A stretch of DNA of 62,943 nucleotides, filler included, from Stramenopiles sp. TOSAG23-3 (lineage: Eukaryota): NCBI GenBank assembly GCA_900128585.1. It is 27 parts of 27 records of this genome, joined end to end, with 100 filler letters (N's around TTAATTAATTAA, not from the genome) between each part and the next. Parts side by side here need not be neighbours in the genome. Positions count along the whole stretch, not along the records: positions 7,038 to 9,281 come from LT644950.1; 26 more parts are not named here. One strand, written 5' to 3'. Positions within the stretch are counted from its first letter, which is position 1, and each line of letters opens with the position of its first letter. The notes under the pieces are model-generated. The model did not search any database. It was given only the letters and a program-made list of their open reading frames with translations, and was not told the origin of the DNA. Below are positions 7,038 through 9,281 of the stretch, one piece after another. Made by a program: the position numbers and the translations under genes.

Positions 7038-7113
7038 ACATACTATATAATTTGTTTTTTAAACCGTCCGATGTAGCTCGTCTTTTTGTTTTGTTGCGTG
7101 GCTGACCTATTCT
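7038..7113 (+). repeat. 76-bp terminal direct repeat, left copy
   Basis: ACATACTATATAATTTG...GCTGACCTATTCT is identical to 9206-9281. Confidence 0.97.
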
Positions 7114-7653
7114 CGCCCTCTTTCTCTCCCTATTACTTTCTGTCTTTTTTGTCTGCCATCTTCTTCTCCAAGCAAAGAATTTACACACTGTAGCACCACG
7201 CAACCGTCTGGTTTTTATGTGGTAGCAAAGGGCAGCTGTGAAAATATCTACGAAATGAACGGGATTGTTTTCACGGAGTTGGATACGGACAAAAACGGTA
7301 ATTATTTGGTTCCCAGCAGCTCAGACATGTCTCTTAGAGTAAAAGAAGCGTGCCCATCGCTTGTTGCCACCGTAGACACATCGATTCTTACGTCAAAAAA
7401 GTATGCGAAATCGAATCTCGAATCGGTCGGTATTTTGGAGAAATTAGTCTGGGTCGCGGATAATTGCTATTCGCAGTTTACCGTAAAAATTGGCGAAGAA
7501 GTGATCTACGAAAATACTCCCAAAAGTATGCTGGATAGTGTAAAGTTAAAGAATAGGTCAGCGTTCACGTTTATTCCAAACGTGGAGATTAGCGGCGCCA
7601 TATCGGTCACTGGCGACTGCGACGTTCCTTTAAATATTATACACAATACGTAG
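7063..7653 (+). pseudogene. Hypothetical protein with a disrupted 5' end
   Basis: The frame is open from 7063 to 7653 but lacks an early in-frame ATG. An out-of-frame ATG at 7071, downstream of TATATAA (7044-7050), is followed directly by TAG. Confidence 0.5.
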
Positions 7654-7780
7654 CAATTGATAAAAAAAATTTATTGTACCACGTACTTTGGTACAGGCGC
7701 CTGTGGCATAACTGTTCTCGTCCCTCCATTTTACAGGCGCTTTGTTGTCATTACAGTTCTCGTACACTGGTACCGACACA

Positions 7781-8176
7781 TTAATCGAGCTGTGGATCAT
7801 ACCTAAGCCCTCTTCGGGAGTTGCAACGACTCCGTAAGGCTCCGTTACTGTTGTAGTACCAAACCCTTTGCCATGCTGGACAGCCTAGTCGACGGTGTTG
7901 TGATGGACTTGTTTCCAACTCCTCGAGCATTCTGCGATAACCGAATGTGACGCTGAGTTGACTGTCGGGAAAGCATTCTTCCAGACATGTACGGTATTCT
8001 GGATGGCAGTCGCGCATGCATGTGCGGCTAAAGCACCTGTCTTGTGCGCCGAAGCAGTCGACCAAGTCGCGTACGCACGCAGCGCGGCAGGATTCCTGTT
8101 CCGGGGTGTGTCGGGATGCGGCTTGCCCGACTAGGACAGCCGCCAACGCAACGGTGAACATTGTTGAGATTTTCAT
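7781..8176 (-). CDS. Secreted Cys-rich prepro-peptide (131 aa)
   Basis: Signal-like MKISTMFTVALAAVLVGQAAS, an 8-Cys domain, RRML, an acidic spacer, RRLG, a 2-Cys peptide, RRGL. The ATG at 8176 follows an (ACA)n-rich leader. Confidence 0.8.
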   Translation of the reverse strand: MKISTMFTVALAAVLVGQAASRHTPEQESCRAACVRDLVDCFGAQDRCFSRTCMRDCHPEYRTCLEECFPDSQLSVTFGYRRMLEELETSPSQHRRLGCPAWQRVWYYNSNGALRSRCNSRRGLRYDPQLD

Positions 8177-8304
8177 GGTCGCTGTTGTTGTTGTAGTTGT
8201 TTTCGTTGTAGTTGTTAAGTACCAGTGGAGTTGCCTACAGTTTTGTCTACGAAATTCGTTTGAGATTTGGAACACTTTACAAATATTTTACACTATACTT
8301 ATAC

Positions 8305-8352
8305 AAACCAGTTATTTTACCCACTATTAAACCAGTTATTTTACCCACTATT
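8305..8352 (+). repeat. 24-bp tandem duplication
   Basis: AAACCAGTTATTTTACCCACTATT x2, exact. Confidence 0.9.
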
Positions 8353-8584
8353 CTAAGATGCTTTACTACACATTATTTTAGATACCAAGGGTGTACATAA
8401 TCATTTTTTTTTTTAATCTTTAGGGCACACCTTTCCTCCTCAAGTGGTATTTTTTTAAGGCACATAGCAAGGTCTTTTTTTTGGAATTTGGGCACACCTT
8501 GCCGTAAAAAAATGTGCTGAAACTTCTTCTTGTACCCTAATTATAACACTACGTAAGACTTAATTTAACAAAAGACTCTGAGCT

Positions 8585-9045
8585 TTAAACAACAGTCTCG
8601 AATACTCGCTTCGGCAAAATTTCTCCATTATTTAATCGTTCGATATAATCGTTCATTTCTTTGATCGTCGCGTTTATAGTCTGTATATCTCTCGGTACAG
8701 CTCTGTATTATTGCTCTGCGCTGTCTTCAACTTGCAACTGTCGCGGAGATCGCCCATTGTTCTTTGTGTTCTTTTATGTACGCAACGCTTCCACGAACTG
8801 TAACGCGTGTAGTACTCCTCCAGAATGTCTTGCAACGCCGCCTCAGTCCAAGCGGTCAGCGACGTATAAGTCCTTTTTGGAAAAATCGGGCTCAGCTCAG
8901 AGTGGCGAAATTTACGACACTTGAAGTCGGCGAGGACCCCACCGCGTGCAATGCTCGCGGTGAAATAATTTCTCTTGAATGTGAAGTCTATAATATCGTT
9001 TTCTTTTAATACGCCAGCGTTTAACATATCTTCGAGGCTAGCCAT
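8585..9045 (-). pseudogene. RAMA-domain protein with C-terminal coiled coil, frameshifted near 8676
   Basis: SLEDMLNAGVL...IDFTFKRNYFTASIARGGVL...YTSLTAW...SSWKRCVH...TMGDLR fits the RAMA fold pattern. The helix ELYREIYRL* continues in another frame as NATIKEMNDYIERLNNGEILPKRVFETVV*. Confidence 0.65.
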
Positions 9046-9090
9046 TTAACAGACCCCAACGGTTATTTATACTGAAACCAATCGCTCCAA
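9046..9090. promoter_or_regulatory. Candidate compact bidirectional TATA-type promoter
   Basis: 45 bp between divergent ATGs (9045 minus, 9091 plus) with a central TATTTATA (TATAAATA on the minus strand) about 20 nt from each. Confidence 0.45.
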
Positions 9091-9273
9091 ATGCCGCAGG
9101 TAAGCAAGTGCGCAAAGTGTAAAAAATCGTTTTTGATGAGCACGTATCAGCTATTAGAGCATTATCGATTGTGCCCTACTAGCCCTGATCTTAAGTTTCG
9201 ACATGACATACTATATAATTTGTTTTTTAAACCGTCCGATGTAGCTCGTCTTTTTGTTTTGTTGCGTGGCTGA
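9091..9273 (+). CDS. Small C2HC zinc-finger protein
   Basis: CAKCKKSFLMSTYQLLEHYRLC = CxxC-x13-H-x3-C with the F and L core residues. Confidence 0.55.
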   Translation: MPQVSKCAKCKKSFLMSTYQLLEHYRLCPTSPDLKFRHDILYNLFFKPSDVARLFVLLRG

Positions 9274-9281
9274 CCTATTCT
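9206..9281 (+). repeat. 76-bp terminal direct repeat, right copy
   Basis: Identical to 7038-7113 and ends exactly at the contig end. Confidence 0.97.

What the first reader, a model, noticed from the sequence alone, without database searches (positions are those of the whole stretch)
7038..9281. Self-closing 2168-bp unit: decaying virus-like genes plus an intact secreted peptide precursor
Seen: the contig begins and ends with the same 76 bp; I saw no such terminal repeat on the other contigs. It packs four intronless genes, with a 45-bp divergent intergenic region and TATA-like motifs about 20 nt before ATGs, unlike the long low-complexity intergenic DNA of the host contigs. The RAMA gene is frameshifted and the 7063-7653 gene has a broken start, while the secreted Cys-rich precursor is intact. 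Established: k-mer-sized terminal overlaps mark circles or collapsed tandem arrays in de Bruijn assemblies. Inference: this is a fragment of a large DNA virus (Nucleocytoviricota- or Mirusviricota-like), episomal or tandemly amplified in the host, possibly kept for the dosage of its peptide cargo. No Rep, integrase or capsid gene is visible, so it would be non-autonomous.
Basis: partly seen in the sequence, partly recalled or inferred. Interest (0 to 1): 0.8.

Follow-up and report, generated by a model that had tools for sequence, protein, structure and literature searches.

The report
Mirusvirus scrap carrying expressed peptide gene
This is not a DNA circle but a single-copy piece of a marine herpes-related giant virus, most likely sitting in a protist chromosome, whose three viral genes are damaged while an intact gene for a probable antibacterial peptide is lodged inside it and turns up in RNA data, so a virus may have carried a protist defence gene from one host to another.

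Summary
The 76-bp terminal repeat is real, but the circle/array reading is not supported. In a second single-cell sample the unit lies between two copies of a 135-bp repeat. That repeat has twice the body's depth (49.2 vs 24.1; a metagenome gives 13.6 vs 7.4), and unique DNA enters and leaves it.
The 2.03-kb body is a 1.1-kb mirusvirus-like fragment. It holds a membrane-protein gene lacking its first ~118 codons, a RAMA-like gene with two lesions, and a zinc-finger gene running into the repeat. Relatives lie in terminase-bearing virus contigs.
A 0.9-kb cassette interrupts the last viral codons, bounded by an imperfect 17-bp repeat. It holds an orphan secreted precursor, a poly(A) signal and upstream boxes shared with host secreted-peptide genes. 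One laid RNA run covers only this gene. Its RRL-flanked, one-disulfide cationic peptide resembles beta-hairpin antimicrobials (untested).
Best reading: endogenous virus scrap kept for its cargo; virus-first capture about 0.4. The scan earlier noted other mirusvirus contigs in this assembly, not this locus.

The parts
7038..7169 (.). Repeat R, left copy (last 132 of 135 bp); CT-rich, origin unknown
   Evidence: table 8: 135-bp record laid on 7038-7169 at depth 49.2 (X3) and 13.6 (X5); unique DNA continues behind 7169 in X3, X5 and X6 (table 7)
7170..7652 (+). orfA remnant: 3' part of a conserved mirusvirus-type membrane-protein gene; first ~118 codons (including the TM helix) missing, last codons out of frame and split by the cassette
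   Evidence: 83% identity over 156 aa to intact 280-aa P0073 from its residue 119; 34-45% to neighbours of RAMA-like genes in L004-L008
7636..7652 (+). Left copy of the imperfect 17-bp repeat at the cassette ends (6-bp core exact)
   Evidence: 15 of 17 columns match 8540-8555; p about 0.008 (shuffles) and 0.010 (AT-matched window pairs)
7653..8549 (-). Inserted 897-bp host-type gene cassette (upstream boxes, precursor gene, poly(A) signal)
   Evidence: last residues of P0073 are found in two pieces on either side of it; unbranched in the X3 and X5 graphs
7670..7675 (-). AATAAA poly(A)-type signal about 17 bp from the cassette end
   Evidence: sequence (position); function inferred
7781..8176 (-). 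Intact 131-aa secreted precursor: signal peptide, 8-Cys helical-hairpin prodomain, RRM/RRL sites, C-terminal peptide
   Evidence: RNA contig 7732-8205 in X15; alleles P0001, P0044, P0045 intact
7817..7885 (-). Predicted mature peptide core (residues 98-120): 23 aa, net +3, two Cys, predicted beta-hairpin
   Evidence: model strands at low confidence (pLDDT 53-54); a second RRL follows in the common allele (7810 variant in 4 of 4 runs)
8487..8524 (.). Upstream boxes shared with other secreted-protein genes of the host assembly, 310-350 bp before the ATG
8540..8555 (+). Right copy of the imperfect repeat at the cassette ends
8550..8563 (+). Displaced last codons and stop of orfA, overlapping the original stop of the RAMA-like gene
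   Evidence: frames compared with the ends of P0073 and P0049
8560..9045 (-). RAMA-like viral gene, broken by a frameshift near 8680-8690 (polymorphic) and an internal deletion near 8590
   Evidence: 82% over 119 aa and 74% over 34 aa in two frames to P0049; allele P0046 lacks the frameshift but ends at the deletion; 42 relatives
9046..9090 (.). 45-bp divergent viral intergenic region with TATA-like words
9091..9202 (+). Small C2HC zinc-finger viral gene; its frame runs on into repeat R to a stop at 9273
   Evidence: 41-42% identity to 50-60-aa ORFs in G001 and G002
9203..9281 (.). Repeat R, right copy (first 79 of 135 bp)
   Evidence: body record ends at 9232; a 108-bp outside record enters at 9203 in X3

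Best explanation
The contig is an assembler loop made from a linear, single-copy locus: flank A - repeat R (135 bp) - body (2033 bp) - R - flank C. The body is a 1.1-kb stretch of a mirusvirus-like genome (orfA, RAMA-like, zinc finger) with a 0.9-kb protist-type gene cassette inserted at the overlapping stops of the two convergent viral genes. Shown: this architecture, the viral origin of three genes, their lesions, the cassette ends, the shared upstream boxes, and an RNA contig over the precursor alone. Inferred: (1) the locus lies in the protist chromosome (about 0.75), where viral DNA was captured at a break or template switch that duplicated 135 bp of the site; no integrase is involved and it is not self-mobile. 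(2) The viral genes decay neutrally while the cassette is transcribed from its own host-type promoter. (3) The precursor enters the secretory path, is cut after RRL by an aspartyl or dibasic protease (about 0.6), and releases a one-disulfide cationic beta-hairpin peptide that acts on prey or competing bacteria (about 0.45). (4) Order of events: the cassette entered the viral DNA before the fragment reached this site (about 0.4 for capture by a live virus followed by delivery to this host; otherwise insertion into an already endogenous scrap).
For: Graph and depth: X3 flank 30.1, R 49.2, body 24.1, flank 16.9; X5 R 13.6, body 7.38; the same outgoing flank in 3 of 3 DNA runs laid. Contigs of 2586, 3072 and 4800 bp, longer than the unit, hold its proteins. 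Viral origin: orfA and RAMA-like genes lie within 1 kb of each other in the 5 closest of 19 virus loci and in 1 of 1 metagenome locus, convergent and abutting in L007; the zinc finger has homologues in 2 of 7 records searched. G001 and G002 carry terminase, topoisomerase II and heliorhodopsins, and G001 also RPB1 and M16 peptidase. Decay. Host-type cassette: a 14-mer occurs 17 times on 14 contigs of G000 (reversed control 0), and 8 of the 14 have a signal-peptide-type gene 250-500 bp downstream in the same orientation (judged by eye). The 18-mer occurs once in IMG/VR, inside an unrelated coding frame. Chromosomal setting: held by 4 runs of 2 single-cell samples (one may be the source) and by metagenome-type runs of 6 further studies; only 1-2 substitutions over 2.1 kb; remnants of the same gene families sit among host genes on C15 and C3775. 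Age order: the cassette-end repeat differs at 2 of 17 columns while both R copies collapse into one record.
Against: Contigs cannot phase A-R-body against A-R-C: a chromosomal empty site plus a circle of equal depth gives the same graph, and X6 has a 360-bp record that may be an empty site. Only 24-30 letters of each flank were seen, and they are not in G000 (flank C also not in IMG/VR), so no host gene is yet linked to the locus. G000 also holds apparently intact mirusvirus DNA (terminase on C176 at 79% identity; gene-dense C3138). R has a TATA-like word before an ATG, like the viral promoters. Codon usage did not separate the precursor from the viral genes. One RNA run of 6 was laid, as contigs, and 6 of the 14 motif contigs lack a same-orientation secreted gene. 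Antimicrobial activity and RRL cleavage are untested; the model is low-confidence (mean pLDDT 56.6). Contig assemblers collapse small differences, so the age argument is soft.
Confidence: 0.65

Rival explanations
1. The locus is part of a mirusvirus genome (free, episomal or a large provirus) associated with this protist: the virus captured the host cassette and local rearrangements then damaged three dispensable genes.
For: G000 contains other mirusvirus-like DNA; the flanks are absent from G000 and unlinked to host genes; the cassette sits at a site a live virus could tolerate; R carries a TATA-like word before an ATG.
Against: All three viral genes are cut or broken, with lesions shared across samples and years and further lesions segregating; two single-cell samples hold it almost unchanged; the other viral DNA in G000 is a different lineage (orfA 48-54% identical; RAMA fragment groups elsewhere).
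Confidence: 0.17
2. One reading: a 2168-bp episomal circle or amplified tandem array kept for peptide dosage.
For: The source assembly emitted an isolated loop with an exact 76-bp overlap and lacks both flanks, which phi29 amplification of a circle in the source cell could cause; recombination between the two R copies could pop out exactly this circle.
Against: R/body depth is 2.04 and 1.84 in two independent samples, and flank depth is similar to body depth, so copy number is about one; no origin or Rep gene.
Confidence: 0.08
3. Amplification chimera or assembly artefact joining viral and host DNA.
For: The source appears to be amplified single-cell DNA (small runs), in which chimeras are common (own knowledge).
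Against: An unamplified-type marine metagenome gives one 2106-bp record across the whole body with 1 substitution; 20 of 24 listed runs hold the stretch or part of it.
Confidence: 0.02
4. The precursor is a native viral secreted protein rather than a captured host gene, and the shared upstream boxes are coincidence or convergence.
For: No paralogue in G000 and no credible homologue among 1.84 billion representatives; relatives of this virus encode many secreted proteins.
Against: 38 of 43 bases match the upstream region of a host peptide gene; the box is absent at up to 2 mismatches from all virus loci fetched except one unrelated coding hit; the closest intact orfA relative lacks the insert.
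Confidence: 0.08

Closest known systems
Mirusviricota, marine polymerase-encoding lineages (Gaia et al. 2023, PMC10132985; provisional order Demutovirales, PMC12768974; passages read)
   Same: Relatives of the three viral genes lie in contigs with terminase, RPB1, heliorhodopsins and M16 peptidase, features the paper lists as hallmark or enriched; compact intronless packing.
   Different: Only 1.1 kb of non-hallmark genes is present, all damaged; the donor lineage sits on a long branch and no genome of it was found.
Endogenous and episomal mirusvirus elements in protists (PMC10827195, passages read; bioRxiv 10.1101/2023.06.15.545109, listing only)
   Same: Mirusvirus DNA inside a protist assembly; stramenopiles are known hosts.
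   Different: The circles described there are 275-325 kb, unbroken and carry marker genes. This is a 2-kb, single-copy, direct-repeat-flanked scrap with an inserted expressed cassette.
One-disulfide beta-hairpin antimicrobial peptides such as arenicin-1/-2 and thanatin (PMC13001179, passages and section 17 read)
   Same: About 21-23 residues, cationic, aromatic, one Cys pair closing a predicted hairpin, released from a larger precursor.
   Different: No sequence match; the prodomain is an 8-Cys helical hairpin in a 131-aa precursor; lower net charge in the core; 'protist' does not occur in that review; no activity data.
TEXEL/RRL processing by Toxoplasma ASP5 (PMC6212819, passages read)
   Same: Signal peptide followed by RRL directly before the predicted mature peptide; RRL repeats recur in other precursors of this assembly.
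   Different: Free-living host; the protease was not identified (8 TAXi_N-type aspartyl protease matches in G000, none tested for orthology); a dibasic convertase could act instead.

Membership tests
Mirusviricota-derived DNA | Genes have homologues in large DNA virus genomes with conserved neighbourhood | tested here: met
   orfA beside RAMA-like in 5 of 19 virus loci (the 5 closest) and in L029; zinc finger in 2 of 7 records
Mirusviricota-derived DNA | Relatives carry a duplodnavirus terminase together with own RNA polymerase | tested here: met
   Terminase_6N just over cut-off in G001 (22.1 vs 22) and G002 (24.2 vs 22); RPB1 in G001 (35 proteins scanned, 32 of them from the 93 long ORFs of G001/G002)
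Mirusviricota-derived DNA | HK97-fold major capsid protein, portal, triplex proteins | tested here: inconclusive
   a candidate capsid protein had no Pfam hit and folded at pLDDT 31
Nucleocytoviricota-derived DNA | Double jelly-roll capsid and A32 ATPase in the relatives | tested here: inconclusive
   0 of 7 records for each family, but records are 8-29% complete, 12 of 19 were not held, and the capsid search had no positive control
Episomal circle or tandem array | Body depth above flank depth; no unique entry and exit | tested here: not met
Endogenous viral element | Physical linkage to host chromosome DNA | tested here: inconclusive
   unique flanks exist but only 24-30 letters were seen and they are not in G000
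Endogenous viral element | Gene decay and presence in independent host cells | tested here: met
Transposon or Polinton-like element | Terminal inverted repeats, transposase or integrase, multiple copies | tested here: not met
   no terminal inverted repeat, no such gene, one copy in G000
RAMA domain (PF18755) | Score over the Pfam cut-off | tested here: not met
   13.5 vs 35.2 bits; best family member E 6.4e-4
Beta-hairpin antimicrobial peptides | Short cationic peptide with a Cys pair and predicted hairpin | tested here: inconclusive
   composition fits; model strands at pLDDT 53-54 only
Beta-hairpin antimicrobial peptides | Experimental hairpin, disulfide and killing activity | not testable with these tools
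   required by PMC13001179 section 17

The most novel reading that the evidence does not exclude
A mirusvirus captured a complete protist defence-peptide gene with its promoter and poly(A) signal at the junction of two convergent genes, and a 2-kb piece of that virus later integrated into the chromosome of this protist, where the viral genes rotted and the cargo stayed active and spread through ocean populations: virus-mediated transduction of a eukaryotic gene caught with its viral wrapping still on. The cargo would belong to a set of RRL-processed secreted peptides under a shared upstream motif in an uncultured marine protist; my searches found no paper describing either.
Probability: 0.4. 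Interest if true: 0.75.

Novelty: new variant of a known kind. Interest (0 to 1): 0.5.

Why it matters
Gene exchange between large DNA viruses and protists is documented (bioRxiv 10.64898/2026.07.28.741200, abstract only), but it is usually inferred from trees. Here both junction sets, the donor gene order and the cargo's promoter are still readable in 2 kb, so the order of events can be tested. A chromosomal remnant would also tie a mirusvirus lineage to this uncultured host more firmly than co-sorted viral contigs do. The cassette exposes a set of orphan secreted peptides with a shared upstream box, a direct lead on how such protists kill bacteria. It is also a caution: a k-mer terminal overlap can come from a single-copy locus between two repeats longer than k.

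Tried and rejected
Intron across the junction: a GTAAGC word at 9100 and a pyrimidine tract in R looked like splice signals, but the zinc-finger homologues align through the would-be donor from the first residue; rejected. R as the degenerate TM region of orfA: the only match to P0073 is E 0.26; not supported. Upstream boxes as transposon ends: similarity is limited to short boxes, duplicated in tandem in 3 loci, except among paralogues; cis-element preferred. Codon usage and GC3: uninformative. Precursor relatives: 1 cluster, itself; 3 hits in 1.84 billion, being itself, a repeat-rich 2691-aa protein and a Cys-spaced 110-aa protein at E 5e-4; no Atlas hit; no PDB fold match at E<=0.001; no PDB sequence match for residues 99-121. 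Single-protein scans of virus contigs found nothing, nor did prokaryote genomes; the one metagenome scan gave 1 distant locus. Atlas had no hit for orfA. Capsid search in G000 found nothing, with no positive control. RAMA was not found in the readable supplements of PMC10132985, but 8 of 19 files were not searched, and these may list the two viral gene families. No complex prediction was run.

Full report
Setting. The window is a string of 27 short contigs joined by N spacers; the finding is one whole contig (7038-9281, C6155 of G000, a 28.4-Mb assembly in 7088 contigs). Earlier notes of the scan call the host an uncultured marine stramenopile; I did not test that. The 76-bp terminal repeat is exact and unique in the window.

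Not a circle. Twenty of 24 listed runs hold the stretch or part of it, among them a second single-cell sample and metagenomes of several studies. I laid four runs, all kept as contigs. In X3 the pieces are: a 135-bp record over 7038-7169 at depth 49.2; a 2091-bp record over 7140-9232 at 24.1; a 108-bp record entering at 9203 at 30.1; and a 1477-bp record leaving at 7169 at 16.9. X5 gives 13.6 for the 135-bp record and 7.38 for the body, and the same outgoing flank appears in X5 and X6. The ratio of repeat to body is 2.04 and 1.84. The simplest reading is flank-R-body-R-flank with one copy of the body; the source assembly lost the flanks and printed the loop. An empty site plus a circle of equal depth gives the same graph, but would need equal depth by coincidence in an amplified cell and a metagenome. 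One 360-bp record in X6 may be an empty allele or a low-depth merge. The flanks are not in G000. Proteins of the unit occur on public contigs of 2586, 3072 and 4800 bp.

Three viral genes. The RAMA-like protein has 42 relatives; a profile found 19 virus loci. In the 5 closest, a homologue of the 7170-7652 frame (orfA) lies within 1 kb, convergent and abutting in L007; the other 14 loci, a more distant subfamily, have none in the fetched flanks. A metagenome contig repeats the pairing. The small zinc-finger frame has homologues in G001 and G002. These two records encode terminase, topoisomerase II and heliorhodopsins, and G001 also RPB1 and an M16 peptidase; no NCLDV capsid or A32 was seen in 7 partial records (weak test). 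This matches Mirusviricota as described in PMC10132985 (passages). The RAMA name itself is below cut-off.

Decay. An intact 280-aa relative of orfA (P0073, 83% identical) aligns only from its residue 119, at window 7171, the edge of R; the start, the transmembrane helix and a conserved motif are gone. The RAMA-like gene has a frameshift near 8680-8690 that one public allele lacks (P0046) and a deletion near 8590 that this allele shares; the old C-terminus survives out of frame down to 8560. Two of three orfA cluster members carry a further change in the N-terminal part. The zinc-finger frame runs into R at 9203. No laid run shows an indel at the frameshift, so it is shared by X3 and X5, which cover it.

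The cassette. The last residues of P0073 are found in two pieces, before 7653 and at 8550-8563, where the orfA stop overlaps the RAMA-like stop. Between them lie 897 bp bounded by an imperfect repeat (15 of 17 columns, 6-bp core exact; p about 0.01). The insert holds a 131-aa precursor, an AATAAA near its left end and upstream boxes. The boxes recur in the host assembly: 11 matches of a 17-mer at up to one mismatch and 17 exact matches of a 14-mer on 14 contigs, reversed controls 0. Eight of the 14 contigs have a signal-peptide-type gene 250-500 bp downstream in the same orientation, by eye; four of these eight are one paralogous family, and one of those has lost the core of its signal; one more contig has such a gene in the other orientation; five have none. 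The neighbours of these genes look like host genes. In X15 one 474-bp RNA contig covers 7732-8205, the precursor and little else.

The peptide. After the signal peptide come eight Cys modelled as two long helices, then RRM and RRL sites, then a 23-residue core with two Cys, net charge +3, modelled as a beta-hairpin at low confidence. All four laid runs and three public proteins have a second RRL after the core; the window carries a rare variant or error there. RRL is a known cleavage site for Toxoplasma ASP5 (PMC6212819, passages), and G000 has 8 matches to a related aspartyl protease family. Another box-bearing gene, on C5660, has four RRL sites and a Lys-rich amphipathic segment after the last. 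No homologue or fold match was found. An antibacterial role is inference from composition and from likeness to arenicin and thanatin (PMC13001179).

Host chromosome or virus. For the host: all viral genes are damaged, two cells and distant metagenomes hold the locus with 1-2 substitutions, and separate remnants of the same two gene families lie among host genes on C15 and C3775 (these could be amplification chimeras and come from other lineages). Against: no host gene is yet linked, and the assembly holds other mirusvirus DNA. I put the chromosomal reading at about 0.75.

Order of events. Three soft arguments favour capture by a live virus. The insert sits within about 25 bp of the overlapping stops, one of the few harmless sites in 1.1 kb of packed genes (though AT-rich ends may attract inserts anyway). 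Its end repeat has diverged more than R appears to have. No parent copy shows in G000 (incomplete assembly) or as a branch in the X3 and X5 graphs. Against: the closest intact orfA relative lacks the insert, no virus with it was found, and the boxes match this very host's genes. About 0.4 for capture and redelivery.

Verdict. Real and more interesting in anatomy than in topology: a single-copy mirusvirus scrap with an intact host-type peptide gene. Endogenous mirusvirus DNA is known (PMC10827195); this compact, cargo-bearing form and the peptide set did not appear in my literature searches, which cover only the held library.

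Noticed in passing
G000 contigs C5660, C2204, C895, C1324, C6409, C1722, C129, C6462 (L002, L026, L057, L056, L032, L071, L033, L037): A shared upstream box precedes several orphan secreted precursors, many Cys-rich with RRL or acidic spacer repeats; C5660 ends in a Lys-rich amphipathic peptide. 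Candidate regulon of secreted or antimicrobial peptides.
   Followed up: partly
G000 C15:10756-10911 (L024 1501-1656): A 5' fragment (about 50 codons) of another RAMA-like gene, ending at a splice-donor-like word, between host genes including a sugar transporter; 69% identical to P0022.
   Followed up: partly
G000 C3775:614-832 (L040): A 73-codon 3' piece of another orfA homologue directly upstream of a host-like gene.
   Followed up: partly
G000 C3138 (L055) and C176 (L067): Gene-dense virus-like contig with an orfA homologue and a pyrimidine-dimer glycosylase, and a terminase piece 79% identical to that of G001: other mirusvirus DNA in the assembly.
   Followed up: partly
window 7101-7113 and 7550-7562: A perfect 13-bp inverted match between repeat R and the orfA remnant; may be chance or a trace of template switching.
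   Followed up: no
window 8305-8352: Exact 24-bp tandem duplication in the cassette's upstream region.
   Followed up: no
window 7059-7073 and the incoming flank in X3: The incoming flank ends with a word that recurs 36 bp later inside R, so the site already held a short duplication.
   Followed up: no
G000 C3569 (L036): Several of the upstream boxes lie next to a frame that looks, by eye and from memory, like a retrotransposon RNase H remnant rather than a secreted gene.
   Followed up: no
P0049: The closest RAMA-like relative has an unusual N-terminus starting with the same three residues as the window's zinc-finger gene; it may itself be rearranged.
   Followed up: no
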